Origin: Dehalococcoidia bacterium
GTDB taxonomy: Bacteria; Chloroflexota; Dehalococcoidia; Bin125
DNA length: 64,000 nucleotides
Direction: 5' to 3'
Assembly: GCA_022824765.1 (NCBI GenBank)
Contig: JAJDZG010000129.1
Coordinates: forward strand, 235 to 64,234
Under the pieces are notes generated by a model that saw only the letters and a list, made by a program, of their open reading frames with translations, was not told where the DNA came from and made no database searches. Positions 1-20,459 of this stretch are shown in pieces. Both the position numbers and the translations under genes were made by a program. Every line of letters starts with the position of its first letter. The first letter of the stretch is position 1.

Positions 1-37
1 GGTCGAACTCACATCCAAGTCGACGCAGCTTTTCGAG

Positions 38-289
38 TCAGCTCGCGATGCGACAAGCCGCGACCACAATCTCGCCCGCCTGACAAATCTCCTCCGGTAG
101 TGGCTTTCCTCGTTCCTTGTAAGAGTCAATGAAGGCCTCCGCGACGCTCTCCAAGATCCAGAGCGCATCCTCAGGCGTGTCGCCCCACGCCCGACACCCA
201 GGTAGCGCTGGCACTTCCGCCAGATACTTGTCCTCGGTGTCGTAAGACGGCGGTCGCATCGTGTACGCCAACCGATACTGCTTCGCCAT
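38..289 (-). CDS. HicB-family antitoxin (type II TA, UPF0150-like). The internal ATG start is preferred over the longest ORF.
   Basis: Translation YRLAYTMRPPSYDTEDKYLAEVPALPGCRAWGDTPEDALWILESVAEAFIDSYKERGKPLPEE is typical of HicB (the ...VPDLPGC...GDTxEEAL... pattern). GGAGG lies 7 nt upstream of the ATG at 289. The ORF-track start at 358 has no RBS. A partner hicA could lie beyond the window edge. Confidence 0.6.
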   Translation of the reverse strand: MAKQYRLAYTMRPPSYDTEDKYLAEVPALPGCRAWGDTPEDALWILESVAEAFIDSYKERGKPLPEEICQAGEIVVAACRIAS

Positions 290-389
290 GTCAGCCTCCG
301 AGCCCATCTCCGCTTGACCCCTACGATACCCTCCAACCGACACCACTTCTGCACCCATTCACTACGGAACCTCGCGGAAAGAACACACC

Positions 390-1331
390 ATGCGACTGAC
401 CTTCGGCGCCCAGATACCAGGCAACTCGACCGACTTCTCCCTGATGCGCGATGTCGCGCAGACGATGGACGCCACCCGCTGGGCGTCGGCCTGGACCTAC
501 GACCATTTCGTCCCGCCGCTCGTCTTCATGGACGAGACGCAGGACTCGCTCGAAGGCTGGATGTCGCTCGCCGCGCTCGGCGAGGCGACCTCCACATTGC
601 AACTCGGCACGCTGGTCTCCGGCGTCACCTACCGCAATCCCGGCTTGTTGGCCAAGATGACCGCAACGCTCGACCACAACACCGGCGGCCGCGCGATCCT
701 CGGACTCGGCGCCGCTTGGCACGAGCGCGAGCACGCCGCCTACGGTTGGGACTTCCCAGCCCTCAAGGAACGCTCTGACCGACTCGAAGAGGCGACGATG
801 CTGATCCGCTCCCTCTTCCACGCCGACGGTCCCGTGCACATCGAGGGCGAGTTCTACCGCACCGACAACGCACCCTTTGCCCCGCGTGTCCATCCCGACA
901 ACCCGCGCGGATTCATCCCGATCATGATCGGCGGCAACGGCGAGCGTCGCACGCTGCGCACCCTGGCCCGCTACGGCGACATCTGCAACGTGCGCGGCAC
1001 CCCTGAGGAGGTCGCTCACAAGCTCGACGTCATCCGCGTCCACTGCGAGAACGCCGGCCGCGACTTCTCGGAGATCACACTGACCACCGTCATGCGACCC
1101 GCGCTCGTCACCGAGCAACCGAAGATTGACCGCCTACGCCAGATCCACGGCGAAGGTATGTCGGACGAGCAACGCGAACGCCTGCCGATCGGTCCTGCAG
1201 AACACCTCATCTCGCTCTTCGCGGAGTACGAGGCGATCGGCATCGAGGGCTTCGTCTTCGAGTCGATCCCCAACAACCCGCGACTCTACGAGCAGTTCGA
1301 CGATCTGGTCCTGAGCGCCTTCGACGACTAA
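390..1331 (+). CDS. LLM class F420-dependent / luciferase-like flavin oxidoreductase
   Basis: 313 aa with luciferase-like monooxygenase features (WTYDHFVPP, GLGAAWHEREH, IGGNGERRTLRTLARYGD). GGAAAGAA RBS before the ATG. Confidence 0.85.
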   Translation: MRLTFGAQIPGNSTDFSLMRDVAQTMDATRWASAWTYDHFVPPLVFMDETQDSLEGWMSLAALGEATSTLQLGTLVSGVTYRNPGLLAKMTATLDHNTGGRAILGLGAAWHEREHAAYGWDFPALKERSDRLEEATMLIRSLFHADGPVHIEGEFYRTDNAPFAPRVHPDNPRGFIPIMIGGNGERRTLRTLARYGDICNVRGTPEEVAHKLDVIRVHCENAGRDFSEITLTTVMRPALVTEQPKIDRLRQIHGEGMSDEQRERLPIGPAEHLISLFAEYEAIGIEGFVFESIPNNPRLYEQFDDLVLSAFDD

Positions 1332-1440
1332 CGCCGCGCGGATGGTCCGCGTCTGCGGCGCCGCGCCGCACGTTTCGATTTACTATGGCACTCAGAAGAT
1401 TCTGCTCCGCAAGGAGCATTCGGCGTGAGCGAGGCTGGCG

Positions 1441-3993
1441 ATGACCATCATTCGAACGTTGGCAATCGGGCTGTTGCTCGCACTGGCAGTCGGTCTGCTC
1501 AGTGCATGCAGCGACGACGAACCCGGGCAAGTGCAGACCGCCGATCAGCAGCAGGCTGATCAGCAGCAAGAACAGGCTGCCGCGACGCAGCAGGACGCTC
1601 AGCAACAGCAACAGCAATCGGCAGCGGCGGACGCGGCAGGACCCCTGAAGATCGCCTTCCTCGCCGACTTCTCCGGCGGACTCTCCGAGTACGGAGTCGC
1701 CATGCAGCGCGGCTTCGATCTCGCCATCAGCCAGGTCAACGCCGCCGGCGGCGTCTGGGGACAGCCGGTCGAGGTCGTCCTCGGCGACACGGGCCTTGAT
1801 CCGACCCGCGCCACCGAGGAAGCGCGACGCCTGATCGAAGTCGAGGGCGTCCACGCCATCGTCGGACCACTCGCCTCTTCGATCACCCTGGCCGTGGTCG
1901 AGTCCGTCGCCGCCGACGCCGGCGTGCTCGTCGTCTCGCCCTCCGCGACCTCCCCGCAGCTGACCATCGCCGACGACAACGACTTCCTCTTCCGCAGCTC
2001 GCCCTCCGACGCCGCACAGGGGCCGATCCTGGCCCAGCTCGCGGCCGATCAGGGCCACGCCCGCGTGGGCGTGCTCTATCGCAACGACGCCTGGGGACAG
2101 GGCCTGGCCGACGCCTTTGGTGACACCTGGGGCGGCGACGCGAACTTCGTCGCCATCGAAGTCGGGCGCGCCTCCTACGTCGCCGAACTGCAGCAGGCCG
2201 CCCAGGGCGGCGCCGACGCCCTCGTCGCGATCGCCTTCCCGCCCGAGTCCGAAGTGTTCATCCGTGAAGCCCTGGAGCAGGGCATCTTCGACCACTTCAT
2301 CTTCACCGACGGCAACAAGAGCCAGGACCTGATCGACGCCATCGGCGGTGACTACCTGAACGGCATGCAGGGGACCGCGCCAGTCGCCGGGCCCGAGACC
2401 GAGGCGCTGCGCAACTACCGCGCCGACTTCGCCGCCGAGATCGGCGACGGCGCCGACGAGCCGTTCGTCGCCCAGACCTACGACGCCGCCGTCGTCATCG
2501 CGCTCGCCGCCGAACACGCCGGCAGCGACGACCGATCCACGATCCGCGACAGCCTGCGCGCCGTCGCCGGACCACCCGGCGACGCATTCGCCGCCGGCGC
2601 CGACGGCATCGCCGCAGCGCTGGCAGCCATTCGCGCCGGCGACGACGTCGACTTCGCCGGCGCCTCCACATCTGTCGACTTCGACGCCGCCGGCGACATC
2701 ACCACCGGGTTCATCGGCGTCTGGCAATACGCCGAGGGCACCATCGAAGAGGTCGGCGTGACCGCCTTCGACCTCAGCGACGGGCCAGCATTGATCATGC
2801 CCGCGCCCTCCGATGCCCAGGACGATGACCAGGCGGCGGTGATGTCCGACGAGCCCCTGAAGATCGGCTTCCTCGCCGACTACTCCGGCGCGATCGCCGA
2901 GTTCGGCCCAGCCATCCAGACCGGCGTCGATCTGGCAATCTCCCAACTCAACGCCGCCGGCGGCATCCTCGGCCACGACGTGGAGCTCGTCATCGGCGAT
3001 ACCGGTCTCGACGCCACGCAGGCAGTCGAAGAAGCCCGCCGACTGATCGAGGTCGAGGGTGTCCACGCGATCGTTGGCCCGCTCGCCTCGTCGATCACCC
3101 TCTCCGTCGTGGAGTCGGTCGCCGCCGACGCTGGAGTCGTCGTGATCTCGCCCTCGGCGACCTCGCCGCAAATCAGCATCGCCGACGACAACGACTTCCT
3201 CTTCCGCAGCACCACGTCGGACGCCGCACAAGGCCCCGTACTCGCCCAGCTCGCCCTGGACGAGGGATTCTCCAGCGTCGGCGTGCTTTACCTCAACGAC
3301 GCCTACGGTCAGGGCTTGGCTGACGCCTTTGAGCTGGCCTATCGCGGAGACATCGCCCTCGTCGCAATCGAGGACGGGCAAACGTCCTACATCGCCGAAC
3401 TCGAGCGGTCGGCCCAGTTTGACGCGCAAGCCCTCGTCGCCATCGCCTTCCCCGCACAAGCGATGGTCTTCATCCGCGAGGCGCTCGAGCAAGGCATCTA
3501 CGACCAGTTCCTCTTCGTCGACGGCACCAAGAGCCAGGACCTCATCGACGCCATCGGCGGTCAGTACCTGGACGGCATGAGCGGCACCGCGCCCTCGCCA
3601 GGACCGGGATCCGATTCGCTCGCCGCCTACCAAGCCGCATACGAGGAAGAGTACGGCGAACTGTCACCGCTGCCGTTCATCGCCGAGGCCTATGACGCGA
3701 CCATCGCCATCGGTCTCGCCGCACAGGCCGCAGGCTCCGTCGAGTCCGCAGCGATCCGCGATCAACTGCGCAACGTCGCCGGTCCGCCGGGAGCGATCAT
3801 CAGCGCGTCGACCCAGATCGCCGACGCCCTCAACCTGATCCTCCTCGGCGAGGACATCAACTACGAAGGCGCCGCCACCACGCTCGACTGGAACGAGCAC
3901 GGCGATGTCACCACCGGGTTCATCGGCATCTGGCAGTTCGAGGACGGCACCATCGTTGAGGTCGGCGAAACGTCGTTCGACCTCGGCCAGTAA
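1441..3993 (+). CDS. ABC transporter substrate-binding lipoprotein, LivJ/LivK type (PBP type I). Internally duplicated, with two complete binding domains in one polypeptide.
   Basis: Signal peptide plus lipobox (LLSAC). A Gln-rich linker follows, then two about-390-aa repeats that each start PLKI[AG]FLAD[FY]SG. The segment EEARRLIEVEGVHAIVGPLASSITL[AS]VVESVAADAGV is near-identical between repeats. Both repeats end ...GFIG[VI]WQ[YF]. Confidence 0.85.
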   Translation: MTIIRTLAIGLLLALAVGLLSACSDDEPGQVQTADQQQADQQQEQAAATQQDAQQQQQQSAAADAAGPLKIAFLADFSGGLSEYGVAMQRGFDLAISQVNAAGGVWGQPVEVVLGDTGLDPTRATEEARRLIEVEGVHAIVGPLASSITLAVVESVAADAGVLVVSPSATSPQLTIADDNDFLFRSSPSDAAQGPILAQLAADQGHARVGVLYRNDAWGQGLADAFGDTWGGDANFVAIEVGRASYVAELQQAAQGGADALVAIAFPPESEVFIREALEQGIFDHFIFTDGNKSQDLIDAIGGDYLNGMQGTAPVAGPETEALRNYRADFAAEIGDGADEPFVAQTYDAAVVIALAAEHAGSDDRSTIRDSLRAVAGPPGDAFAAGADGIAAALAAIRAGDDVDFAGASTSVDFDAAGDITTGFIGVWQYAEGTIEEVGVTAFDLSDGPALIMPAPSDAQDDDQAAVMSDEPLKIGFLADYSGAIAEFGPAIQTGVDLAISQLNAAGGILGHDVELVIGDTGLDATQAVEEARRLIEVEGVHAIVGPLASSITLSVVESVAADAGVVVISPSATSPQISIADDNDFLFRSTTSDAAQGPVLAQLALDEGFSSVGVLYLNDAYGQGLADAFELAYRGDIALVAIEDGQTSYIAELERSAQFDAQALVAIAFPAQAMVFIREALEQGIYDQFLFVDGTKSQDLIDAIGGQYLDGMSGTAPSPGPGSDSLAAYQAAYEEEYGELSPLPFIAEAYDATIAIGLAAQAAGSVESAAIRDQLRNVAGPPGAIISASTQIADALNLILLGEDINYEGAATTLDWNEHGDVTTGFIGIWQFEDGTIVEVGETSFDLGQ

Positions 3994-4004
3994 CCCAACC
4001 AGCA

Positions 4005-4050
4005 CGACCCGGCGGGCAGTGACTGTGCGCTGTCCGCCGGGCACTGCCTG
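4005..4050. terminator. GC-rich stem-loop downstream of the first SBP gene; possible intrinsic terminator or attenuator
   Basis: CCCGGCGG...CCGCCGGG and the overlapping GGCAGTG...CACTGCC inverted repeats lie immediately after the stop at 3993. No T-tract, as expected in a high-GC genome. Confidence 0.35.
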
Positions 4051-4077
4051 CTCATCCCTCATGCCCAGCAACGGAGA

Positions 4078-5391
4078 GTGTGTTCCGTGATCATCCCGCG
4101 TGCGTGCTCCGTGCTCACCGTGCTCGCAGCGGCAGCGGTCGTCCTCATCGCCGCCTGCGGCGGCGATGATGCCGGCCAACAGACCGGCAATCCACCGCCG
4201 CAGCAATCGGCAGCCGAGACGGCAGCGCCAGCCGTTCAGCCGACCGAACCGCTCAAGCTCGGCTTCCTGCTCGACTTCAGCGGCCCCCTGGCCGACTACG
4301 GAGCCGAGCTGCAGCGCGGCTTCGACCTCGCCATCCAGCACATCAACGACGCCGGCGGCGTCTGGGGCATGCCCGTCCAGACCGCCGTCGGCGACACCAT
4401 GGTCGACCCCACGATTGCCGTTGAGGAAGCACGACGGCTGGTCGAAATCGAGGAAGTGCACGCCCTCGTCGGGCCGATGACCAGCGGCACGGCTCTGGCC
4501 GTCGCTGAGTCAGTCACCGGACCAGCCGGCATTCCAACCATCTCGCCCGTCGCCACGTCCGCGCAGATCACGGTGGCCGAAGACGACGACTTCCTCTTCC
4601 GCGTCTCCCTCGCCGATCACGTCGAGGGCCGCTACCTCGCCCAACTGGCGGCGCAACAGGGCTTCGACAACGTCGGGCTGCTCTACCGCGACGACGCCTT
4701 TGGGCAAGGCATGGCCGACTCCTTCGAGCAGCACTGGTCTGGCACCTTGCGCTCGATCGGCGTCAGCCCCGGCGCAACCAGCTTCACCGCCGAGCTGGAA
4801 CAGTCGATTGAGGCGGACGCAGAGGCGCTCGTGCTGATCGCCTTCCCGCCCGAGACGATCCTGATCCTGCGCGAGGCGCTCGAGCTCGGATACTACGACC
4901 AGTTCGTCTTCGGCGCGCCAGCCCGCTCGACTGCCATTCCGCAGTCAATCGGCGGCGATCTGGTCGCTGGCATGCGCGGCACCTACGTCGCCTCAGCACC
5001 TGAGAACGACTCATCGCGAGCCTGGGACGACGCGTTCCTCGCTGAGTACGGCGACGCGCCAAGCCTGCCCTACGTCAAGGAAGCCTACGACGCCACCATC
5101 GCCCTGGCGCTCGCCGCGCAAGCCGCCGGATCGACCGACGGCGCGGCCATCCGCGACCAGCTGCGCCGCATCGGCTCCGCGCCCGGCCTGATTGTGATCC
5201 CGACGCCCGACAGCCTCGCCGCCGGCCTGGCCGAGCTCGCGCGGGGCGGCGACGTCGACTACGAAGGCGCAGCCGTCAGCGCGGACTGGGACGAGAACGG
5301 TGACAGCACTCACGGCTACATCGGCATCTGGGAGTTCAACTCCGACAACACCATCTCCGACGTTGAGGTCATCGAGTACTCGAAGGAGTAG
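4078..5391 (+). CDS. ABC transporter substrate-binding lipoprotein, LivJ/LivK type, single domain
   Basis: 437 aa with lipoprotein signal (VLIAACGG) and the same PLKLGFLLDFSGPLADYG...VGDT...EEARRLVEIEEVHALVGP architecture. The start is GTG at 4078; an alternative GTG at 4087 has better spacing from GGAG. Confidence 0.8.
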   Translation: MCSVIIPRACSVLTVLAAAAVVLIAACGGDDAGQQTGNPPPQQSAAETAAPAVQPTEPLKLGFLLDFSGPLADYGAELQRGFDLAIQHINDAGGVWGMPVQTAVGDTMVDPTIAVEEARRLVEIEEVHALVGPMTSGTALAVAESVTGPAGIPTISPVATSAQITVAEDDDFLFRVSLADHVEGRYLAQLAAQQGFDNVGLLYRDDAFGQGMADSFEQHWSGTLRSIGVSPGATSFTAELEQSIEADAEALVLIAFPPETILILREALELGYYDQFVFGAPARSTAIPQSIGGDLVAGMRGTYVASAPENDSSRAWDDAFLAEYGDAPSLPYVKEAYDATIALALAAQAAGSTDGAAIRDQLRRIGSAPGLIVIPTPDSLAAGLAELARGGDVDYEGAAVSADWDENGDSTHGYIGIWEFNSDNTISDVEVIEYSKE

Positions 5392-5402
5392 AAGGAGTAA
5401 CC

Positions 5403-6716
5403 GTGCCGCACCGCTGGTTGATCCTGTTCGCGCTGGCTCTCGCGGCCTCTGTCATCACGCTCGCCGCGTGCAGCAGCGACGACCAGGCCGCACAAGCTCA
5501 ACAGACCCCGCAGACGCAGACTCAAACTGCTCAAGCGGCACAACAACGCGGCGACGAGATCGGGCCGCTCAAGATCGCGCTACTCGGCGACCTCAGCGGT
5601 GGACTGGCCGAAATCGGCGTCGAGATGCGCGACGGATTCCTGCTCGCCATCGACCACATCAATGCCGCCGGCGGCGTCTTCGGCCAGCCCGTCGAGTTTG
5701 TGATCGGCGACACCAACACCGATCCAACCATCGCCGTCGAAGAAGCACGCCGGATGATCGAGATCGAGGGCGCGCACGCCATCGTTGGCGCGCATTCCAG
5801 CACCAACTCGATCGCCGTCGCCGAGAGCATCACCGGCCCAGCCGGCATCCCGCAAATCTCGCCCGCGTCCTCTTCGCCCCAACTTGCCGTCGCCGCCGAC
5901 GATGACTTCCTCTTCCGCGCCACGCTCAACGACATCGTGCAGGGCCCGGCATTGGCCCAGCTGGTCGACGAGCAGGGATACCGCAACGTCGGCGTGCTCT
6001 ACCGCGACGACGCCTGGGGGCAGGGCATCGCCGAGACCTTCGAGGCCGCGTTCACCGAGACCTACGGCGGTCAGGTCCGCGCCGTCGCCGTCACTCCGCA
6101 GCAGGCCAGCTACCTCGCCGAAATCCAACAGTCGCTGGCCGACGATCCCGAGGCGATGGTCATGCTCGCCTACGTGCCAGAAGGGGCGATCATCCTGCGC
6201 GAGGCCATCGAGAACGGACTCTACGACCGCTTCGTGTTCGGGCCGACCAGCCGCAACTTCCAACTGATCGACGCGATCGGCGCCGAGTATCTCGCCGGGA
6301 TGCCCGGCACCGCACCAGGCACAGCGCCCGGCACCGAGTCGGCGCTGCTCTGGGAGGCCGCATTCCTCGCCAAGTACGAGCGCCCCTACGCCTTCCCCTA
6401 CACCAAGCAGGCCTACGACGCCGCGATCGCCATCGCGCTCGCCGCCGCAGCCGCACAATCGACCGACGGCCCGGCCATCCGAGACCAGCTGCGCCGAATC
6501 GGCGCCGCGCCCGGACAGCTGGTCGTCGCCGACATCGGCAGCATCCGTCAAGGACTCGAAGCTGCCCGCAATGGCGACGACATCGACTATGAGGGCGCCG
6601 CCCAATCGCTCGAATGGGACGAGAACGGCGACCTGGACCGCGGCTACGTCGGACTCTGGCGCTTCACGGACGATGGCGGCATTGAGGACACCGGCGTCAT
6701 CCCCTACGGCGATTGA
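5403..6716 (+). CDS. ABC transporter substrate-binding lipoprotein, LivJ/LivK type, single domain
   Basis: 437 aa with lipobox LAACSS and PLKIALLGDLSGGLAEIGVEMRDGF...EEARRMIEIEGAHAIVG. GAAGGAG lies 5 nt before the GTG start. Confidence 0.85.
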   Translation: MPHRWLILFALALAASVITLAACSSDDQAAQAQQTPQTQTQTAQAAQQRGDEIGPLKIALLGDLSGGLAEIGVEMRDGFLLAIDHINAAGGVFGQPVEFVIGDTNTDPTIAVEEARRMIEIEGAHAIVGAHSSTNSIAVAESITGPAGIPQISPASSSPQLAVAADDDFLFRATLNDIVQGPALAQLVDEQGYRNVGVLYRDDAWGQGIAETFEAAFTETYGGQVRAVAVTPQQASYLAEIQQSLADDPEAMVMLAYVPEGAIILREAIENGLYDRFVFGPTSRNFQLIDAIGAEYLAGMPGTAPGTAPGTESALLWEAAFLAKYERPYAFPYTKQAYDAAIAIALAAAAAQSTDGPAIRDQLRRIGAAPGQLVVADIGSIRQGLEAARNGDDIDYEGAAQSLEWDENGDLDRGYVGLWRFTDDGGIEDTGVIPYGD

Positions 6717-6735
6717 TCGGCGAGCTGAATAGCCG

Positions 6736-7809
6736 TCAGCGGCTGCGCGCTGCCCGCAGACGTCTCAGCCCTTTGTCCAGCCAACCTTCTGGCAACTCGC
6801 CGGCCGGCCCGCTCGTCACGAAGCGGCTGACACGATCCCGCTCGGCCAGCAACCCCTGCGGACGCCAGAGCAGGAAGACCACAATCAGCAGCCCGATCAG
6901 CAGCTGGCGAACCTGGAAGACGCGGCTGCCCAACCAGTCGGGCAGCGACTCCTGAATCAGCGGCGTCCCGAACCAGAAGAAGCCGACCACCACCGCGCCC
7001 AGCACCGCGCCGCGATGATTGCCGCTGCCGCCCACGATCAGCATCGTCCAGACAAAGAACGTGCCCAAGAGGTCGGAGAACGTGAGCGGCGAGATCGTCC
7101 CGCTGCGATGCGCATAGATCGCGCCGGCCAATCCCATCAGCATCGCCCCCAGCATGAACGCGCCCATCCGAAAGCGCACCGTGTTCTTGCCCGACGCCTT
7201 GGCCGTGTCCTCGTTGTCTCGAATCGCCCGCAGCGTCCGACCCCACGGCGACGCCGACGCTCGCGACACCAACCAGTAGACCGCCGCCAGCACGACCAGC
7301 GCGATCACCAACTCGACCCAGCGATACCCACCGCCTTGCACCTGATCCTCCAGCAACCCATCGATCCCATTCAGTCCGCGCGAGCGGTTGACCAAACCCT
7401 CGACCGAGTTGGCAATGCTGCGCAGGATCGCCGCCACGCCGATCGTCGCGATCGCCAGAAAGTCGTCGCGCAGCCGCAGCGTCGGAATGCCCAACAGGAT
7501 CGCCAGCACCGCTCCCGCAATCGCCGCGAACAACCAGCCCACCGGGATCGGCAAACCCCAGCCCGCCACGTAGGACTCCAACCCTTCGGGCGCGGGCAAG
7601 GTCAGCACCGCAGACACGTACGCGCCGACCATGAAGAACGCCGCCACGCCGAAGTTGAGAATGCCCACGCTCCATTGCACGTTCAGCGCCAGCGCGAGGA
7701 TTGCGAAGATCGACACCGTCGTCAGGAAACCCACCGTCCAGTTGACGGCGCCGTCGAACGTAACCAGCGTCACGATCAGCTGTTCCATCGGACTACCTGC
7801 TCTGTCCAA
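6736..7809 (-). CDS. livM: Branched-chain amino acid ABC transporter permease, LivM family
   Basis: Multi-TM protein carrying the LRAIRDNEDTAKASG motif characteristic of LivM. The likely true start is the ATG at 7788 (MEQLIV...), 5 nt after the livH stop. Confidence 0.85.
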   Translation of the reverse strand: MDRAGSPMEQLIVTLVTFDGAVNWTVGFLTTVSIFAILALALNVQWSVGILNFGVAAFFMVGAYVSAVLTLPAPEGLESYVAGWGLPIPVGWLFAAIAGAVLAILLGIPTLRLRDDFLAIATIGVAAILRSIANSVEGLVNRSRGLNGIDGLLEDQVQGGGYRWVELVIALVVLAAVYWLVSRASASPWGRTLRAIRDNEDTAKASGKNTVRFRMGAFMLGAMLMGLAGAIYAHRSGTISPLTFSDLLGTFFVWTMLIVGGSGNHRGAVLGAVVVGFFWFGTPLIQESLPDWLGSRVFQVRQLLIGLLIVVFLLWRPQGLLAERDRVSRFVTSGPAGELPEGWLDKGLRRLRAARSR

Positions 7810-8683
7810 ACATGCCGCGCGGACGCAGCAGCAGCACCGCGATCACGATCACAAACGGAATGCCCGGTTTGAGCCCGGTGCTGATCCACTGTGTGGACAC
7901 CTCTTGCGCAATACCGACGGTCAGCCCGCCGATCAGCGCCCCCCAGGGATTCCCAATCCCGCCCAGAATCATCGCCGCGAACAGCGGCAGCAGCAGTCGG
8001 AATCCCGCGTCGAAGCGTACCTCCGCCTGCAACCCCAGCATCACACCCGCCAGCGCGGCGAGCATCCCGCCCACGATCCACGTGCCCCTGCGGATCCGGT
8101 CCGTGTCAATGCCCGACGCTTCAGCCAGACCAGGATTATCCGATGTCGCGCGCATCGCCTTGCCGAATCTGGTGCGATACAGAAGCCAGTAGAGCAGAAT
8201 CGCCGCCAGCACTGTCACGCCGACGATGAAGAACTGATCAGGCTTGACCCGAATGCCGCCCAGGATCTCGACCGCCGGGTGAATGCCCGGCGTGTAGCGA
8301 AAGTTGGACGGTCCCCAGATCAGCTGGATCGCCGCGCGCAGCATGATCGACATGCCCAGCGACGCAATCGCGAAGATGAAGAAGCCGCCGCCCGCTACTC
8401 GCAACCGCCGATAAACCAGACGCTCCATGATCACCGACAGCGCCGCCACGCCGACCATCGCGACCAGCAGGCCGACGACCAGCCCCCAGCCAAATGACAG
8501 CGAACCGAAGCGTCCGCCGGCAAATCCAAGATTCGCCCCCTCCGACGACACCACGAAGAAGGCCAGGAACATCCCCCAGCCCATCTTGTCCCCGTGCGCG
8601 AAGTCGCCGATCCCGAGCACCCCGAAGATGAGCGTCAGACCCATCGCCCCCAGCGCGATGATCGAGCCGACGATGATCCCCAC
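7793..8683 (-). CDS. livH: Branched-chain amino acid ABC transporter permease, LivH family
   Basis: GIGDFAHGDKMGWGMFLAF and MRATSDNPGLAEASGID are typical LivH motifs. The gene sits between livF and livM. Confidence 0.85.
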   Translation of the reverse strand: MGIIVGSIIALGAMGLTLIFGVLGIGDFAHGDKMGWGMFLAFFVVSSEGANLGFAGGRFGSLSFGWGLVVGLLVAMVGVAALSVIMERLVYRRLRVAGGGFFIFAIASLGMSIMLRAAIQLIWGPSNFRYTPGIHPAVEILGGIRVKPDQFFIVGVTVLAAILLYWLLYRTRFGKAMRATSDNPGLAEASGIDTDRIRRGTWIVGGMLAALAGVMLGLQAEVRFDAGFRLLLPLFAAMILGGIGNPWGALIGGLTVGIAQEVSTQWISTGLKPGIPFVIVIAVLLLRPRGMFGQSR

Positions 8684-8703
8684 CGTGACCAGCTGCGCGA
8701 TGT

Positions 8704-9495
8704 CTATGACGGCATCCCTTCATCAATCGAAAAGCCCTCACCCTCGGCCTGACCCAGGAACGCTCGCCCCACCTCAGGACTGATCAACACCTCGGTCCCC
8801 GATCCGATCAGCGCCTGTTCGCCGTCGACCATCACCAGTCCGCGATCCGACCAGACCAGCGCCTCCGTCGCGTTCTGCTCAACCATCAGCACACCGACAC
8901 CCGAGAGGTGAATTCGATAGATGCGCGCCAGCAGCTCGCCGCGCGCCGCAGGCGAGAGCGCCGCCGTCGGCTCGTCCAGGCAGAGCAACACCGGATCGAG
9001 CATCAGCGCCCGCGCCATCGCCAGCATCTGACGCTGACCGCCCGAGAGCCGGCTCGCCCGCTCATTTGGCCGAAACTCCAAATCGGGAAACATCGCCAGC
9101 ACCTCGCCGATCCGGTCCTCCAGACCCTGCTCACGCATGTAGCCGCCCATCTCCAGGTTCTCGCGGATCGACATCGAGGCAAACACATTGTCGACCTGCG
9201 GCACGTAGCCAACGCCAGCCGCAATCATCCGCGGCGTCGACCAACCGCTCACGTCCCGACCCTGGAACGTGCGCTGGCCCCGTTCGAAGGGCAGCGCGCC
9301 CACAATCGCCTTGAGCAGCGTCGACTTGCCCGCCCCGTTCGGGCCGATGATCGTCAAGATCTCGTCCTGAAAGACATCCAACCCGATGTCGTGAATGATC
9401 TCAATCCCCTCGACGTAGCCCCCGCTGAACGACTCCACCTGCAACAGCGGCTGACGCCCTGCATGGTCGGCATGGTCGGCGGTGATCGCGGTCAT
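8704..9495 (-). CDS. livF: ABC transporter ATP-binding protein, LivF type
   Basis: Walker A GPNGAGKST, signature LSGGQRQM and Walker B LLCLDEP. Overlaps the livG stop by 4 nt. Confidence 0.9.
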   Translation of the reverse strand: MTAITADHADHAGRQPLLQVESFSGGYVEGIEIIHDIGLDVFQDEILTIIGPNGAGKSTLLKAIVGALPFERGQRTFQGRDVSGWSTPRMIAAGVGYVPQVDNVFASMSIRENLEMGGYMREQGLEDRIGEVLAMFPDLEFRPNERASRLSGGQRQMLAMARALMLDPVLLCLDEPTAALSPAARGELLARIYRIHLSGVGVLMVEQNATEALVWSDRGLVMVDGEQALIGSGTEVLISPEVGRAFLGQAEGEGFSIDEGMPS

Positions 9496-10262
9496 GTTCG
9501 CTGTCCGCTGAGATAGGCCGACTGCACCTCGGGATTGCTGAGCACATCACCAGGCGCGCCGATGTCGAGCACGCGGCCCTGCGCCATCACCACGACCGGA
9601 TCGCACAGCTGGCGCACGAAATCGAGATTGTGCTCGATGATCAGGAAGGTCAGCCCCAATCGGTCGCGCAGAACGCGGATGTGTTCCGCCAGACGCGCAA
9701 TCAGCGCCGGGTTGACGCCCGCGCCCGGCTCGTCGAGCAGGATCATCTTGGGCTCCGCCATCAGCGCCCGCGCCAGCTCCAGCAGCTTGCGTTGACCACC
9801 CGACAGCGCACCGGCCCGAATGTACGCCTGGTGGCCCAGCTGCGTCTGCTCCAGCACGGCATGGGCCCGCGCCTCCAGCGCCGACTCCTCCCGCCGCAGA
9901 CGTCCCGGCGTCAGCCACGTGCGCCAGACCGATTCGCCCGACTGACGCTCCCCAGCGAGCATCAGGTTCTCGAGCACCGTCATCGTGTCCAGTTCCTGCG
10001 GAATCTGAAACGTGCGGACCAGCCCGTTCTCGAACATGCGGTGCGGCGCCAGCCCGGTCACGTCTGCGCCGTCGAACGTGACGCGCCCGCCGTCCGGCTT
10101 CAGGAATCCCGCGACGCAGTTGAACGCGGTCGTCTTGCCTGCGCCATTGGGACCGATCATCCCCGCGATCTGGCCTCGCTCGACCGAGAACGTCGCTGCG
10201 TCGCAGGCGCGCAACCCCCCGAAGTGCTTGTCCAACGCCTCGACGTCGAGCAGCGCCGACAT
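9492..10262 (-). CDS. livG: ABC transporter ATP-binding protein, LivG type
   Basis: GPNGAGKTT, LSGGQRKLLELARAL and ILLDEP. The start is set at the internal ATG (MSALLDVEALDKHFGG), 8 nt after the upstream HIT stop; the 10310 start of the longest ORF would overlap the HIT gene by 40 nt. Confidence 0.85.
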   Translation of the reverse strand: MSALLDVEALDKHFGGLRACDAATFSVERGQIAGMIGPNGAGKTTAFNCVAGFLKPDGGRVTFDGADVTGLAPHRMFENGLVRTFQIPQELDTMTVLENLMLAGERQSGESVWRTWLTPGRLRREESALEARAHAVLEQTQLGHQAYIRAGALSGGQRKLLELARALMAEPKMILLDEPGAGVNPALIARLAEHIRVLRDRLGLTFLIIEHNLDFVRQLCDPVVVMAQGRVLDIGAPGDVLSNPEVQSAYLSGQRT

Positions 10263-10269
10263 CTGGCGA

Positions 10270-10650
10270 TCAGCCCGGCGGCCAGGACAGCGCGCGACCG
10301 CCCAGGACATGCAAATGCAAGTGCGGCACCGTCTGCCCAGCGTCCTCGCCGACGTTGATCACCACACGCCAGCCCGACTCCGCGATACCCTCAATCTCCG
10401 CAACCTTCCTGGCCGCCCGCAGCAGCACGCCGAGCAGCATCGACTCCCACTCGTCCGCCTCCTGCAGACCCCTCACGGGCATGCGCGGCACCACCAGCAC
10501 ATGCGTCGGCGCTTGCGGATTCAGATCGCGAAACGCCACGCAGTGATGATCCGCGTAGACGATGTCCGCCTCCACCTCACCCCGCACGATCGCACCGAAA
10601 ATGGTGTCCGATGACCGTTCGGCCAGCGTCGGATCGGTGTAGTCAACCAC
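10270..10650 (-). CDS. HIT (histidine triad) family protein
   Basis: Histidine triad HLHLHVLGG with an upstream [12 protein letters not shown]...HVLVVPR region. A GTG start at 10650 is preceded by AAGGGGG with a 6-nt spacer; the longest ORF reaches 10689. Confidence 0.75.
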
Positions 10651-10706
10651 GCGCTGCCCCCTTCGCCGATCGTTGCTGCGTTCTGCCACAGAGTAGCCTG
10701 TGGCAC

Positions 10707-11432
10707 ATGCCGCCCGACGCCCAGCAACCCAACCTCGTGCTCCTCCGACACGGCCAGAGCCAATGGAATCTGGAGAACCGCTTCACCGGCTGGATCGACG
10801 TACCACTGACTGATCAGGGCCGCGATGAGGCACGCCGCGCCGGCCGCCAGATTCGCGAGGCGGGCATCGAACTCGACGCCGCCTGGACCTCAGTCTTGAC
10901 CCGCGCTATCCACACCCTCTGGCTGGTCCTCGACGAGATCGACGCCCCCTGGTTGCCCGTCCGTCGCGATTGGCGCCTCAACGAACGCCACTACGGCGGC
11001 CTGCAAGGGCTGAACAAGGCAGAGACTGCGGCCAGGCACGGCGACGACCAGGTCCACATCTGGCGCCGCTCCTACGACATCCCGCCACCGCCCCTGGACG
11101 CCGACGACCCCAGCCATCCACGCTTCGACCGCCGCTATCGAGACATCCCGCGCGATGCGCTGCCTTCAGCCGAATCGCTGCAGCTGACCCTCGAGCGCGT
11201 CCTGCCCTGCTGGAATGCAGAGATCGCGCCGGCCCTCGCCAATGGTCAGCGCCTGCTGATCGCCGCCCACGGCAACAGCATCCGCGCCATCGTGAAGCAC
11301 CTCGACCGCATCTCTGACGCTGACATCACCGATCTCAACATCCCCACCGGCATGCCGCTGGGCTACACCCTCTCCCCCCAGCTAGGAGTGCTCAACCGCG
11401 GCTACCTAGCCCCCGCCGAGCCGAACCAGTAG
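10707..11432 (+). CDS. gpmA: 2,3-bisphosphoglycerate-dependent phosphoglycerate mutase
   Basis: [29 protein letters not shown] and [20 protein letters not shown] are canonical GpmA motifs. The ATG at 10707 matches the expected N-terminus. Divergent from the HIT gene. Confidence 0.85.
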
Positions 11433-11445
11433 ACACCCAGCCCCC

Positions 11446-11560
11446 ACCGTCATTCCAGCGCCCCCTCCATCATTCCAGCGCCCCCGTCATTTCAGCGCCT
11501 CCCCGTCATTCCAGCGCCCCCCGTCATTCCAGCTTGTCTGGAATCTCGCCCCACAACGTC
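11446..11560. repeat. Intergenic tandem repeat array (about 19-bp period, GTCATTCCAGCGCCCCC units) ending in a hairpin unit ATTCCAGCttgtCTGGAAT
   Basis: Five imperfect tandem copies sit directly after the gpmA stop. The last copy carries a 7-bp inverted repeat (ATTCCAG/CTGGAAT). The same unit family recurs at 13712-13850. Confidence 0.6.
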
Positions 11561-11632
11561 CCACCAAATCCCAAACGAGACGCCAAGACACGCTGGAACG
11601 ACCGACTCTCCACCAGCCTCCCCAGCGACACC

Positions 11633-12505
11633 CTACGCCGTCACCGCCTCGCGGTACTGGCGGATCGCCTCGATGTGCGCGTCGATGTCCGGCAGGCCGG
11701 CATTCATCGTCGCAATCGACATCGCGGTCGCGCCCATCGCGCCCCAACGTTCCGCGTGAGACACCCACAGCTCGGGATTGCCGCCGCGGAACTGCGCCTG
11801 CGGCTCGATCGGGAAACTGTCAGCGTCGCGGCCGTGCTCTCGCAGATGACCGCGCAACGTCTCGACCATCGCCTCCGAGTCCGCGTTGGGCGCGCCGATC
11901 GGGAACCACCCGTCGCCGATCCGAGCCGTGCGCTCCAGCTGCTTGGGGTGCGCACCGCCGAACCAGACTTCGATCGGCTCCGTCGGGCGCGGCTCGATGC
12001 CGGCCGCTCGCACGCTGTGGAACTCGCCCTCGAAGTCCACCAGGTGCTCGCTCCACAGCGCGCGCATCAACGCGATCTGCTCCTCCTGGCGGCGGCCCCG
12101 ATTGCGGAAGTTCTCGCCCAACACCGCGTACTCGACCTGGTTCCAGCCGCTGCCCACGCCGAGTCGGAAGCGGTTGCCCGAAAGCACCGCCAGCTGCGCC
12201 GCCTGCTTGGCCACCAGCGCCGTCTGACGCTGCGGCAAGACCAGCACGGCCGTCGCCAGACCCAGCGTGCGCGTGTGCGCGGCAATGAAGCCCAGCGTCA
12301 CGAACACCTCGTGGAACGGATGCTCGTCCGTGTACGGACCAGTCATCTGATGCACCGACGGGTCGGCGCCCAGCACGTGGTCGTAGATCAACAGGTGGTC
12401 AAAGCCCAATCCCTCGACGGCCTGCGCGTAGTCTCGGATCGCGCCGGGGTCCGCGCCAATCTCGTTGGTCGGCAGCACCGCGCCCAAGCTCAGATTCGTG
12501 GCCAT
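11633..12505 (-). CDS. LLM class F420-dependent / luciferase-like oxidoreductase
   Basis: 290 aa with luciferase-like monooxygenase features (GFDHLLIYDHV, LGVGSGWNQVEY, WFGGAHPKQLERTARIGDGWFP). Confidence 0.85.
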   Translation of the reverse strand: MATNLSLGAVLPTNEIGADPGAIRDYAQAVEGLGFDHLLIYDHVLGADPSVHQMTGPYTDEHPFHEVFVTLGFIAAHTRTLGLATAVLVLPQRQTALVAKQAAQLAVLSGNRFRLGVGSGWNQVEYAVLGENFRNRGRRQEEQIALMRALWSEHLVDFEGEFHSVRAAGIEPRPTEPIEVWFGGAHPKQLERTARIGDGWFPIGAPNADSEAMVETLRGHLREHGRDADSFPIEPQAQFRGGNPELWVSHAERWGAMGATAMSIATMNAGLPDIDAHIEAIRQYREAVTA

Positions 12506-12556: not shown

Positions 12557-12586
12557 GTCGCCCCGAGTCGCCCCGAGTCGCCGCGC
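12557..12586. promoter_or_regulatory. Three tandem 10-bp direct repeats ((T/G)AGTCGCCCC) in a divergent promoter region
   Basis: The run tagtcgcccc gagtcgcccc gagtcgccgc lies between the divergently oriented LLM (start 12505) and CitE-like (start 12632) genes. Candidate regulator binding site. Confidence 0.3.
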
Positions 12587-12631
12587 TGTCGTACCCTCGA
12601 AGCACCGCAGCCCGACCTCTCGGAGACCACC

Positions 12632-13690
12632 ATGCCCACGCCCCGTCAGTTTCTGCGCCCGCTCGTGCTCGGCGCCCCCGATCCGCCGCGCGACATCCCC
12701 ACGACGCCCTCGCGGATGATCCACTTCTTCGATCCGTCCAACGAGCGCATTCGCGCCCGACTGCCGCAGCTCGCTCCAACCGTCGACATCCTGCTCGGCA
12801 ACCTCGAGGACGCGATCCCACCCTCTGCCAAAGAAGCGGCCCGCAACGGACTGATCGAGGTTGGCCAAACCCTCGACCTGGGCCAGACCAAACTCTGGAC
12901 CCGCGTCAATGCCGTCGACAGCCCCTGGTTCCTCGATGACATGCTGCAGCTGACCGAGTCAATCGGCGGCGTCCTCGACACCGTCATGCTGCCCAAAGTC
13001 AATGGACCCGAAGAGATTCGCTTCCTCGACCTGTTGCTCGCCCAGCTTGAAGCGCGCAACGGTCTGACCCAACCGATCCTGATTCACGCCATCCTCGAGA
13101 CCGCGCAAGGCGTCTCCAACGTCGAGGCCATCGCCCAATCGAGCCCGCGCCTGCAAGGAATGAGCCTCGGACCGTCCGACCTGGCCGCCTCGCGGCGGAT
13201 GAAGACCACACGCGTCGGCGGACCGCACCCCGGCTACGTCGTCCGCGATGACGCCAATCCCGACGACGACGCCACGCCGCGCACGCCCTACATTCAGGAC
13301 CCCTGGCACTACACGCTGGCCCGCATGGTCGACGCCTGCGCGGCCAACGAGATCTATCCCTTCTACGGCCCCTTCGGAGACTTTTCCGATCCCATCGGCT
13401 GCGAAGACCAGTTCCGCGCCGCTTTCATCCTCGGTTGCGTCGGCGCTTGGACGCTGCATCCCAACCAGATTCCGATCGCCAAGTCCGTGTTCCGTCCCAA
13501 CGCCGACGAAGTCGCCTTCGCCCGTCGCGTCGTGGCCGCCATGGAGGAAGCCGGCGGCGCCGGAGGAGTCGCCGTCGTCGACGGCAAAATGCAGGACGAC
13601 GCCACCTACAAGCAATGCCAGGTCCTCCTCGACCTCGCAAACATGCTCGCAGAGAAGGACCCAGAGCTCGCCGATCTCTACCACGAGTAG
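12632..13690 (+). CDS. HpcH/HpaI aldolase / citrate lyase beta subunit (CitE)-like acyl-CoA lyase family protein
   Basis: 352 aa with CitE-like features (MIHFFDPSNERIRARLPQ...VDILLGNLEDAIPP...KEAARNG). GGAGA lies 5 nt before the ATG at 12632. The 718-aa ORF in the track (from 11534) has a spurious N-terminal part antisense to the LLM gene. Confidence 0.8.
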   Translation: MPTPRQFLRPLVLGAPDPPRDIPTTPSRMIHFFDPSNERIRARLPQLAPTVDILLGNLEDAIPPSAKEAARNGLIEVGQTLDLGQTKLWTRVNAVDSPWFLDDMLQLTESIGGVLDTVMLPKVNGPEEIRFLDLLLAQLEARNGLTQPILIHAILETAQGVSNVEAIAQSSPRLQGMSLGPSDLAASRRMKTTRVGGPHPGYVVRDDANPDDDATPRTPYIQDPWHYTLARMVDACAANEIYPFYGPFGDFSDPIGCEDQFRAAFILGCVGAWTLHPNQIPIAKSVFRPNADEVAFARRVVAAMEEAGGAGGVAVVDGKMQDDATYKQCQVLLDLANMLAEKDPELADLYHE

Positions 13691-13711
13691 CGCTCCCGTC
13701 CCTCCAAAGAA

Positions 13712-13850: not shown

Positions 13851-13905
13851 CTGCAACGACGCTCAGCGCAGTGATCGATCAGCTGCACTCACAACCTCTC
13901 TGACG

Positions 13906-16674: not shown

Positions 16675-16744
16675 GGGTCAACTCTAGGACCGCCCGCGAA
16701 CGCGCGTCTGTCGTCGGAGGCGTTTGGCCGACGTGGACGTGCCG

Positions 16745-20415: not shown

Positions 20416-20459
20416 CTCGTTCCGCCTCTCGCTATGCCCTGCCTCAAGTCGTGTCCCGC

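What the first reader, a model, noticed from the sequence alone, without database searches (positions are those of the whole stretch)
1441..6716. Three consecutive LivJ-type binding-protein genes, one an internal tandem duplication (two complete PBP domains), serving a single permease/ATPase set
The first SBP (850 aa) contains two full binding-protein domains. A stretch of about 60 aa is essentially identical between the halves, and the nucleotide sequence (about 1800-1990 versus 3000-3190) is also highly similar, suggesting recent duplication or ongoing gene conversion. Two single-domain paralogs follow, and only one livGFHM set is present (convergent, 6736-10262). A lipid-anchored two-domain type-I SBP is uncommon and may broaden or cooperatively tune substrate range. 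The Q-rich linkers are encoded by CAG-rich repeats (about 1540-1625) that are slippage-prone.
Basis: seen in the sequence. Interest (0 to 1): 0.5.

Follow-up and report, generated by a model that had tools for sequence, protein, structure and literature searches.

The report
Conserved two-domain LivJ-type lipoprotein binding protein
One gene really does encode two complete amino-acid-binding modules on a single lipid anchor, followed by two single-module relatives that share one membrane transporter, but this is an old, conserved design in marine Dehalococcoidia, not a recent duplication or an assembly error.

Summary
ORF 1441-3993 encodes 850 aa: lipoprotein signal, Q-rich tether, two full Peripla_BP_6/LivJ domains and a 24-aa acidic linker. 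Two 437-aa single-domain paralogues follow, and a single livMHFG set converges on them.

- **Not an artefact.** At least 118 full-length two-domain homologues exist, down to 48% identity. Syntenic copies occur in about 50 Dehalococcoidia/SAR202 genomes, including complete long-read chromosomes.
- **Not recent in this genome.** The halves are 65% aa and 73% nt identical. Codon identity at shared residues is 0.64, the same as between old paralogues (0.56-0.68). The 61-aa near-identical stretch has no excess third-position identity (0.62 versus 0.60). It holds LivJ ligand-contact positions 77-79 and 100-102, so selection on the protein explains it.
- **Recombination does occur in relatives.** Halves are 99.9% (L047) and 96.7% (L057) nt identical there, and halves cluster by genome in several clades.
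- **Array size varies.** The syntenic locus carries one to eight binding-protein genes, including an unfused tandem pair.

Both halves keep the LivJ amino-acid-anchoring residues; SBP-B and SBP-C lack the acidic residue at position 226. The closest functional analogue is GlnPQ's tandem binding domains. I judge it a new variant of a known kind, of moderate interest.

The parts
1354..1370 (+). Terminator-like hairpin followed by a T-rich tail, downstream of the luciferase-like oxidoreductase gene (390-1331). It implies that the binding-protein array has its own promoter within 1371-1440.
   Evidence: Pattern scan. This is a consensus match only; no sigma-70-like promoter was found.
1441..1509 (+). 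Signal peptide with lipobox (LLSA-C23) of the two-domain binding protein.
   Evidence: Translation. A22, C23 and D26 are invariant in 19 homologues. AF2 predicts a helix over residues 3-23.
1510..1641 (+). Q/A/D-rich disordered tether (aa 24-67) between the lipid anchor and the first domain.
   Evidence: pLDDT is about 30 over residues 19-64. dN/dS is 0.31 against the closest orthologue, with a one-codon indel. Perfect repeats are at most (CAG)3 and (CAGCAA)3.
1642..2781 (+). N-terminal LivJ-type binding domain (aa 68-447).
   Evidence: Pfam Peripla_BP_6. PDB sequence hits to LivJ, LivK and 4GNR. pLDDT about 90. Anchoring residues S79, A101, T102 and D226 are present. dN/dS 0.037.
2782..2853 (+). 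24-aa acidic interdomain linker, GPALIMPAPSDAQDDDQAAVMSDE.
   Evidence: Alignment of 118 homologues shows a linker of variable sequence but similar length. pLDDT is below 50 at residues 457-467. dN/dS 0.31.
2854..3993 (+). C-terminal LivJ-type binding domain (aa 472-850) plus the stop codon.
   Evidence: Pfam best stretch covers residues 472-779. 4GNR sequence hit E 2e-30. Anchoring residues are conserved. dN/dS 0.11.
4008..4041 (+). Perfect 14-bp GC-rich hairpin directly after the two-domain gene. Probably a partial terminator or a 3' stabiliser.
   Evidence: RNA fold gives -41.2 kcal/mol, z -2.4. Hairpins of different sequence sit at the same place in most related loci.
4078..5391 (+). SBP-B, a single-domain LivJ-type lipoprotein (437 aa). 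Its pocket class is distinct, with Ala at LivJ position 226.
   Evidence: All 17 orthologues share the signature Y-M-S-S-V-A-T-F-F-A-Y.
5403..6716 (+). SBP-C, a single-domain LivJ-type lipoprotein (437 aa). Its pocket class is distinct, with Pro at LivJ position 226.
   Evidence: The 31 orthologues share the signature I-H-S-S-A-S-S-W-Y-P-Y.
6736..7809 (-). LivM-type permease, convergent with the array. Its stop codon lies only 19 nt from the SBP-C stop.
   Evidence: Pfam BPD_transp_2. NCBIfam best hit is LivM, below the equivalog cut-off. Gap measured.
7793..8683 (-). LivH-type permease.
8704..9495 (-). LivF-type ATPase.
9492..10310 (-). LivG-type ATPase. The probable true start is at 10262, giving MSALLDVE...
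   Evidence: The 256-aa version aligns to LivG model positions 4-253.

Best explanation
Gene 1441-3993 encodes a conserved, anciently fused lipoprotein with two LivJ-type (HAAT-family, type I/cluster B) substrate-binding domains strung on flexible tethers.

**Architecture**
- The order is lipid anchor, about 45-aa disordered Q-rich tether, domain 1, 24-aa acidic linker, domain 2.
- It is the first gene of a tandem array of binding-protein genes. The array varies in copy number across genomes. It lies at a syntenic Dehalococcoidia locus and converges on one LivMHFG translocator.

**Shown**
- Both domains are complete and under strong purifying selection.
- Both retain the residues that anchor the alpha-amino and alpha-carboxylate groups of an amino acid in LivJ.

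**Inferred**
- Each domain captures a free amino acid independently, probably a hydrophobic one. Each then docks in turn on the same LivHM permease.
- One secretion and lipidation event therefore places two binding sites at two distances from the membrane, much as the tandem SBD1-SBD2 of GlnPQ do.
- SBP-B and SBP-C lack the acidic residue at position 226. They probably bring chemically different ligands to the same translocator.

**Evolution**
- The similarity of the halves in this genome reflects common ancestry plus selection on the binding cleft, not recent exchange.
- Across the family, the 1.2-kb domain repeats recombine from time to time, by conversion, deletion or re-duplication. Different lineages therefore carry halves that are anywhere from 48% to more than 99% identical.
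For: **Architecture and family**
- establish the reading frame and family assignment.
- Fold search: each domain superposes on ligand-bound LivJ-type structures (4GNR, 3TD9, 4N0Q; TM-score 0.88-0.89 normalised to the target). No PDB chain covers both domains.
- AF2 gives domain pLDDT about 90, disordered segments at 19-64 and 457-467, and pTM 0.50. This fits beads on a string.

**Conservation**
- 118 full-length homologues of about 850 aa.
- 78 loci, all from Dehalococcoidia, Chloroflexota or SAR202 genomes.
- Synteny LLM, SBP array, livMHFG, HIT, gpmA.

**Selection**
- dN/dS is 0.037 (N domain) and 0.114 (C domain) against the 93%-identical orthologue. The linkers score 0.31.

**Binding residues**
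- The LivJ contact list comes from PMC13103812.
- S79, A101, T102, D226 and F276 are kept in essentially all N and C halves.
- SBP-B has Ala and SBP-C has Pro at position 226, conserved in 17 and 31 orthologues.

**No recent exchange in the window**
- Same-codon fraction between halves is 0.64, against 0.56-0.68 between old paralogues.
- Third-position identity is 0.62 in the conserved stretch and 0.60 elsewhere. The longest exact in-register match is 34 nt.

**Recombination in the family**
- L047 halves are 99.9% nt identical and L057 halves 96.7%.
- Halves of P0070, P0072, P0077, P0087 and P0105 are 98-99.5% identical within each protein. In P0070, P0072 and P0105 that exceeds every comparison with the other four proteins (95-98%).
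- Bootstrap is 100 for N+C sisterhood in L047, L057 and L053.
- An unfused tandem pair, each gene with its own lipobox, occurs in L041-L048.

**Analogue**
- GlnPQ tandem binding domains bind ligands independently (PMC8025302).
Against: - No ligand, expression or transport data exist for any member.
- Tyr202, an H-bond donor in LivJ, is Phe in both halves, so the binding geometry may differ.
- Whether the distal or the proximal domain can dock on LivHM is untested. One domain could act only as a capture or hand-off module.
- The phylogenies are neighbour-joining trees on about 375 columns. Many deep nodes have low support. The number of independent fusions versus conversions is therefore unresolved.
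- Lipidation is inferred from a motif only.
- The literature search covered open-access papers only. A prior description of LivJ-type tandem lipoproteins cannot be excluded.
Confidence: 0.7

Rival explanations
1. One reading: the two halves stem from a recent internal duplication, or are being homogenised by ongoing gene conversion in this genome. The near-identical 60-aa stretch would be a conversion tract.
For: - The stretch is 56/61 aa identical and 84.7% nt identical, against about 73% for the whole domain.
- Relatives show real homogenisation.
- At sites where the window differs from its closest orthologue L001, the window's halves match each other more often than L001's halves do (71 versus 33 sites).
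Against: - Synonymous similarity in the stretch is not elevated. Same-codon fraction there is 0.41-0.52, against a gene mean of 0.64. Third-position identity is 0.62 versus 0.60.
- The overall same-codon fraction equals the baseline between old paralogues.
- The 71:33 excess is scattered over the whole domain. It coincides with higher GC3 in the window (0.86 versus 0.82), which points to a compositional effect.
- The stretch holds ligand-contact positions 77-79 and 100-102. It is also conserved in SBP-B and SBP-C.
Confidence: 0.06
2. The 850-aa ORF is an assembly or sequencing artefact that fuses two adjacent single-domain genes, for example through a missed stop or a lost intergenic region.
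For: Unfused adjacent pairs of single-domain genes do exist at the syntenic locus in some genomes (L041-L048).
Against: - More than 118 independent clusters have the same length and a linker at the same position.
- Many lie on complete long-read chromosomes of 2.3-3.6 Mb.
- The second domain has no signal peptide or lipobox, and the linker is in frame.
- An orthologue 93% identical in protein, about 8% diverged in DNA, has the same architecture.
Confidence: 0.01
3. Subfunctionalisation is the point of the fusion. The two halves bind different ligands, so the protein widens the substrate range and fixes a 1:1 stoichiometry of two specificities, as with GlnPQ SBD1 and SBD2.
For: - In this clade the halves differ at position 18 (Tyr versus Phe) and position 150 (Trp versus Tyr).
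- Position 18 sets Leu versus Leu/Ile/Val specificity in LivK and LivJ (PMC13103812).
- The halves are only 65% identical, and the C half evolves about three times faster (dN/dS 0.11 versus 0.04).
Against: - In most homologues the 11 pocket positions are the same in both halves (F-L-A-S-S-A-T-Y-F-D-F).
- Several lineages carry halves that are 97-100% identical. The architecture is therefore maintained without any difference in specificity.
- The changes Tyr to Phe and Trp to Tyr are conservative.
Confidence: 0.3
4. One half is not a transport receptor. It could be a sensor, a scaffold or a decoy, or a degenerate domain.
For: Nothing specific. The distal and proximal positions could give unequal access to the permease, as is seen with GlnPQ.
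Against: Both halves keep all anchoring residues in 118 of 118 homologues. Both are under strong purifying selection and fold with pLDDT about 90.
Confidence: 0.05

Closest known systems
E. coli LivJ/LivK with LivHMGF (HAAT family, TC 3.A.1.4; PDB 1Z15, 1USG, 2LBP)
   Same: - Same Pfam family and fold.
- Several binding proteins share one LivHM permease and LivGF ATPase pair.
- Ligand-anchoring residues Ser79, Ala101, Thr102 and an acidic residue at 226 are conserved in both halves.
   Different: - LivJ and LivK are soluble, single-domain periplasmic proteins encoded in the same orientation as the permease genes.
- Here the receptors are lipoproteins, one of them carries two domains, and the receptor genes converge on the transporter genes.
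- Tyr202 is Phe.
- All NCBIfam scores fall below the equivalog cut-offs.
Streptococcus pneumoniae LivJ (PDB 4GNR)
   Same: - Best sequence and structure match (E 2e-30; TM-score 0.88 normalised to the target).
- It has Asp rather than Glu at position 226 and Ser at position 100, like both halves.
   Different: It has a single domain and is about 25% identical.
GlnPQ of Lactococcus lactis: tandem SBD1-SBD2 (PMC8025302)
   Same: - Two complete substrate-binding domains in one polypeptide, joined by a short flexible linker.
- The domains sit at different distances from the membrane and serve one translocator.
- In GlnPQ the domains bind ligands independently. This is the best mechanistic analogue.
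   Different: - GlnPQ domains are class F (PF00497-type) and are fused to the transmembrane domain.
- Here the domains are cluster B LivJ-type, on a separate lipid-anchored protein.
- Here the two pockets are nearly alike.
Operons with extra paralogous binding proteins for one transporter (for example MusE1/MusE2 of Gardnerella, PMC13008276; HisJ/ArgT from general knowledge)
   Same: Tandem paralogous binding-protein genes with diverged pockets feed one permease, as SBP-A, SBP-B and SBP-C do here.
   Different: Those paralogues remain separate genes. Here two of them are fused, and the array ranges from one to eight genes between related genomes.
Concerted evolution of prokaryotic paralogues (PMC6053082)
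   Same: In several lineages, repeats within one genome are more alike than orthologous repeats between genomes.
   Different: Here the repeats are two domains inside one gene, and homogenisation is episodic. It is not detectable in the window's own lineage.

Membership tests
LivJ-type substrate-binding protein (Pfam Peripla_BP_6; HAAT family; type I/cluster B) | Significant match to the family profile over the full domain length. | tested here: met
   PF13458 scores 348 bits against a cut-off of 31.7, with two stretches in SBP-A. SBP-B scores 184 bits and SBP-C 167 bits.
LivJ-type substrate-binding protein (Pfam Peripla_BP_6; HAAT family; type I/cluster B) | Two-lobed alpha/beta fold that superposes on solved LivJ/LivK structures. 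| tested here: met
   The AF2 model (domain pLDDT about 90) matches 4GNR, 3TD9 and 4N0Q with TM-scores of 0.88-0.89 normalised to the target.
LivJ-type substrate-binding protein (Pfam Peripla_BP_6; HAAT family; type I/cluster B) | Genomic association with LivH/LivM permeases and LivG/LivF ATPases. | tested here: met
   The adjacent convergent livMHFG set is conserved in about 70 related loci.
Free alpha-amino-acid-binding LivJ/LivK subgroup | Residues that hydrogen-bond the ligand main chain: Ser79, the backbone of residue 100, Thr102, Tyr202 and Glu226 (PMC13103812). | tested here: inconclusive
   - Both halves of SBP-A have Ser79, Thr102 and Asp226 (Asp as in 4GNR), but Phe at position 202.
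- SBP-B has Ala226 and SBP-C has Pro226 and Ser102. SBP-B and SBP-C therefore fail this feature.
- No binding assay is possible with these tools.
E. coli LivJ / LivK / LivH / LivM / LivG / LivF equivalogs (NCBIfam) | Score above the curated equivalog cut-off. | tested here: not met
   Every score is below its cut-off, for example 228 versus 477 bits for the binding protein and 221 versus 362 for LivG. These proteins belong to the family but are not orthologues of the E. coli proteins.
Bacterial lipoprotein | Signal peptide ending in a lipobox, [LVI][ASTVI][GAS]C. | tested here: met
   The motifs are LLSA-C23, IAA-C and LAA-C. The Cys is invariant in homologues.
Bacterial lipoprotein | Lgt/Lsp-dependent acylation and cleavage. 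| not testable with these tools
   This needs biochemistry or the complete genome.
GlnPQ-type tandem substrate-binding domains | Two or more complete binding domains in tandem in one polypeptide. | tested here: met
GlnPQ-type tandem substrate-binding domains | Binding domains covalently fused to the transmembrane domain; class F (PF00497) fold. | tested here: not met
   SBP-A has no transmembrane domain beyond its signal peptide. Its fold is LivJ-type, cluster B. It may work like GlnPQ's domains, but it is not a member.
   In the window the value is 0.64, against a baseline of 0.56-0.68, and the conserved stretch shows no local excess. The feature is met in relatives L047 (99.9% nt) and L057 (96.7% nt).

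The most novel reading that the evidence does not exclude
LivJ-type binding domains may behave as recombining 1.2-kb cassettes.
- At one syntenic locus, lineages would move between one gene, two tandem genes, a fused two-domain gene and larger arrays.
- Elsewhere, proteins carry three to five domains.
- Episodic intragenic homogenisation keeps the fused halves alike.

On this reading, selection acts on the number of equivalent binding sites per lipid anchor, as a dosage or avidity device for scavenging dilute amino acids. The result would be a separately anchored counterpart of GlnPQ's tandem domains, in a transporter family where none has been studied.
Probability: 0.3. Interest if true: 0.55.

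Novelty: new variant of a known kind. Interest (0 to 1): 0.35.

Why it matters
Tandem substrate-binding domains have been studied almost only in GlnPQ, where they are fused to the permease.

A conserved family of lipid-anchored two-domain LivJ-type receptors would be a natural test case. It includes members whose halves range from 48% to more than 99% identical. It could show whether linking two receptors changes capture, competition for docking, or transport rate in a different ABC family.

The organisms are abundant, uncultivated marine and sponge-associated Dehalococcoidia/SAR202 that live on dilute dissolved organic matter. The variable binding-protein array around one translocator is also a compact example of how uptake range evolves.

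For annotation, 850-aa 'ABC transporter substrate-binding proteins' of this clade should not be split or flagged as fusions.

Tried and rejected
1. **Conversion tract in the window.** Sliding-window synonymous analysis, third-position identity and a quartet test against the closest orthologue were run. The only signal was a dispersed 71:33 asymmetry, which I attribute to higher GC3 in the window.
2. **Slippage-prone CAG repeats.** Tandem Repeats Finder and a regular-expression scan found at most three perfect units.
3. **Riboswitch or known RNA near the array.** Rfam gave only two chance-level hits over 1-12000.
4. **Sigma-70 promoters.** None was found. The scan is not informative for this phylum.
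5. **Second transporter set in the window.** None is present. The other ABC ATPases are only 31-32% identical and belong to other systems, including a ZnuABC-like one.
6. **Literature on LivJ-type tandem lipoproteins.** Five searches returned only the GlnPQ and OpuA work. One query was malformed.
7. **Specific NCBIfam assignment, such as urea or LIV.** All scores were below the cut-offs.
8. **One fusion plus conversion, or several independent fusions.** NJ bootstraps leave deep nodes unresolved, and the linkers are too low in complexity to serve as markers.

Full report
**1. What is in the sequence**

The region holds three same-strand ORFs with the codon-position GC pattern of real genes (GC3 about 0.85):
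- 1441-3993, 850 aa;
- 4078-5391, 437 aa;
- 5403-6716, 437 aa.

Pfam places all three in Peripla_BP_6/ANF_receptor. The first has two full-length matches (E 1e-103, two stretches).

The 850-aa protein is laid out as follows:
- a signal peptide ending in the lipobox LLSA-C23;
- a Q/A/D-rich segment, aa 24-67;
- domain N, aa 68-447;
- the linker GPALIMPAPSDAQDDDQAAVMSDE;
- domain C, aa 472-850.

On the minus strand, converging on the array, lie livM, livH, livF and livG homologues at 6736-10310. The stop codons of SBP-C and livM are 19 nt apart. No other LivH/LivM homologue occurs in the 64-kb window.

**2. Is the fused ORF real?**

A search of 5.8 billion proteins returned more than 118 full-length homologues of about 835-893 aa. 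All have the same two-domain architecture, and identity runs down to 48%.

A scan of one genome per species returned 78 loci. All come from Dehalococcoidia, Chloroflexota or SAR202 MAGs, and many are complete long-read chromosomes of 2.3-3.6 Mb.

The closest orthologue, L001, is 93% identical in protein and 8.4% diverged in DNA. It shares the architecture apart from a one-codon indel in the tether. An assembly artefact is excluded.

**3. Recent duplication or conversion?**

The halves are 65% identical in protein and 73% in DNA, at a register offset of 1212 nt.

The near-identical stretch is real:
- 56 of 61 residues are identical, at nt 1816-1998 versus 3028-3210.
- DNA identity there is only 84.7%.
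- Third-position identity is 0.62, against 0.60 in the rest of the gene.
- In 30-codon windows, the fraction of identical residues that use the same codon is 0.41-0.52 there. That is below the gene mean of 0.64.

Over the whole domain, the same-codon fraction between halves is 0.64. Between the much older paralogue pairs it is 0.63 (A_N/B), 0.63 (A_N/C) and 0.68 (B/C). Synonymous sites between the halves are therefore at the codon-usage baseline.

The stretch includes the positions equivalent to LivJ 77-79 and 100-102, which line the ligand cleft. It is also well conserved in SBP-B and SBP-C. Purifying selection explains it, not recent exchange.

A quartet comparison with L001 gave a 71:33 excess of sites where the window's halves agree. 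Those sites are scattered across the domain. The window also has higher GC3 (0.86 versus 0.82), so I read the excess as compositional.

The 'slippage-prone' CAG repeats are at most (CAG)3 and (CAGCAA)3.

**4. Evolution of the family**

The within-protein identity of the two halves ranges from 0.48 to 0.99 across homologues.

Evidence for homogenisation or re-duplication in some lineages:
- In P0070, P0072, P0077, P0087 and P0105 the halves are 98-99.5% identical within each protein. In P0070, P0072 and P0105 that exceeds every comparison with the other four proteins (95-98%); in P0077 and P0087 the same-position halves are as alike as their own two halves.
- At DNA level, the halves of L047 (a complete chromosome) are 99.9% identical over 377 codons. 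Those of L057 are 96.7% identical.
- In a bootstrapped NJ tree of 93 domains with 200 replicates, N and C halves of the same gene are sisters with 100% support in L047, L057 and L053.
- L057's pair nests among the C halves of its syntenic relatives, which suggests the N half was overwritten.
- L047's pair is sister to a single-domain gene, L075.

By contrast, the window's N half groups with N halves of L001, L002 and L004 (100% support). Its C half groups with that of L001 (100% support).

Only 1702 of 6903 protein pairs show the simple orthologous pattern, in which N-N and C-C identities both exceed the cross-half (N-C) comparisons. The repeats therefore recombine or re-duplicate episodically, but not detectably in the window's lineage.

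I could not decide between one old fusion followed by conversion and domain loss, and several independent fusions. Deep nodes are weak, and the linkers are too low in complexity to serve as markers.

**5. The locus as a whole**

The synteny is LLM oxidoreductase, SBP array (+), livM-livH-livF-livG (-), HIT, gpmA-like. It is conserved across the clade, while the array itself varies:
- one single-domain gene (L061-L078);
- two adjacent single-domain lipoprotein genes 42-75 nt apart, each with its own signal peptide (L041-L048);
- a two-domain gene alone;
- a two-domain gene plus one to four single-domain genes;
- two consecutive two-domain genes (L033, L034);
- up to eight genes in total (L039, L040).

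Outside this clade, the best 150 cluster representatives for one domain include proteins with two, three, four and five Peripla_BP_6 domains. The five-domain protein lies on a contig carrying NurA/HerA/Mre11/Rad50-type genes. Concatenation of LivJ-type domains is thus recurrent but a minority state, in roughly 10 of 150 representatives.

**6. Structure and likely mechanism**

AF2 gives two confidently folded domains (pLDDT about 90). It predicts a disordered tether at residues 19-64, a disordered linker at 457-467, and pTM 0.50. That pattern fits independent beads on a string.

Each domain superposes on ligand-bound LivJ-type structures: 4GNR, 3TD9 and 4N0Q, with TM-scores of 0.88-0.89 normalised to the target. 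No solved chain covers both domains.

The LivJ contact list from PMC13103812 maps as follows:

| Protein or half | Main-chain anchoring positions | Position 18 | Position 150 | Position 226 |
|---|---|---|---|---|
| SBP-A, N half | Ser79, Ala101, Thr102, Phe276; Tyr202 replaced by Phe | Tyr | Trp | Asp |
| SBP-A, C half | Ser79, Ala101, Thr102, Phe276; Tyr202 replaced by Phe | Phe | Tyr | Asp |
| SBP-B | distinct pocket signature | Tyr | Phe | Ala |
| SBP-C | distinct pocket signature | Ile | Trp | Pro |

- The anchoring residues are kept in essentially all homologues of SBP-A.
- Position 18 is the known determinant of LivK versus LivJ specificity.
- In most homologues, both halves share one pocket signature.
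- The SBP-B and SBP-C signatures are distinct and conserved, in 17 and 31 orthologues.

Against L001, dN/dS is 0.037 for the N half, 0.114 for the C half and about 0.31 for the linkers.

My inference has three parts.
- Both halves are working receptors of the amino-acid type. Each binds independently and takes turns docking on the one LivHM permease.
- The fusion mainly raises the number of receptor sites per lipid anchor and places them at two distances from the membrane. In this clade there is some secondary divergence in specificity.
- SBP-B and SBP-C extend the range to ligands that lack a free alpha-ammonium group.

The mechanistic precedent is GlnPQ, whose tandem domains bind ligands independently (PMC8025302). 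Binding, docking and transport are all untested here.

**7. Comparison with known systems and novelty**

The proteins are members of the HAAT/LivJ family by profile, fold and gene context. They are not equivalogs of the E. coli Liv proteins, because all NCBIfam scores fall below the cut-offs.

The tandem design works like GlnPQ's. It fails two of GlnPQ's defining features: fusion to the transmembrane domain and a class F fold.

I found no paper describing LivJ-type tandem lipoproteins in the searchable library. That search covers open-access text only.

**Verdict.** The feature is real. Its anatomy was correctly described, but the evolutionary reading was wrong for this genome. It is a new variant of a known kind and of moderate interest (0.35). 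The most interesting aspect is at family level: domain-sized cassettes that fuse, homogenise and vary in number around a single translocator.

Noticed in passing
window 4008-4041; same position in L007, L013, L017-L024, L027, L028, L047, L057: A perfect 14-bp GC-rich hairpin sits directly after the two-domain gene (-41 kcal/mol). Hairpins with different sequences occupy the same place in most related loci, and L047's has a T-run. It is probably a partial terminator or a 3' stabiliser that sets expression of A relative to B and C.
   Followed up: partly
window 6716-6736; related loci: The last binding-protein gene and livM converge with their stop codons only 19 nt apart. In many relatives the gap is between -19 and +27 nt. 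That leaves no room for terminators, so the convergent transcripts probably overlap.
   Followed up: partly
L039 4780-16419, L040, L033, L034: At the same syntenic locus the binding-protein array ranges from one to eight genes. L033 and L034 carry two consecutive two-domain genes.
   Followed up: partly
L033 4928-8998; L039 4780-9850; L040: Some array members lack a lipobox. Instead they carry a conserved N-terminal module of about 60 aa (...RVSVRPLEDGRAEVAVQFR...GRWLNSSPV...) in front of the binding domain. The module was not identified.
   Followed up: no
P0097 (868 aa): A natural chimera. Its N half resembles the N half of SBP-A, while its C half clusters with SBP-B. This suggests recombination between neighbouring array genes.
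   Followed up: no
P0173 / L079 8001-13832; P0230; P0243; P0254: LivJ-type proteins with five (1943 aa), four and three tandem Peripla_BP_6 domains exist. The five-domain protein lies on a contig with NurA, HerA-like, Mre11 and Rad50 genes, which looks archaeal. No adjacent permease genes appear in the 22-kb locus.
   Followed up: partly
L041-L048, for example L046 9899-12439: The unfused tandem pair of single-domain genes have almost identical signal peptides within each genome. Homogenisation or recent duplication therefore also affects separate neighbouring genes.
   Followed up: no
window 390-1331, 11633-12505, 32133-33092: The window holds three luciferase-like (LLM-class) oxidoreductase paralogues. 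Related loci often carry two in tandem upstream of the array.
   Followed up: no
window 12560-23663: Neighbouring genes are an HpcH/HpaI aldolase, a P-type ATPase, a ZnuA/ABC-3 metal uptake set, two tandem short-chain dehydrogenases and an HpaB-type 4-hydroxyphenylacetate 3-hydroxylase. No link to the binding-protein array was established.
   Followed up: no
window 1207-3633 (-): An 808-aa antisense ORF overlaps the two-domain gene. Codon-position GC favours the plus-strand gene. The antisense ORF is best explained as a high-GC artefact.
   Followed up: yes
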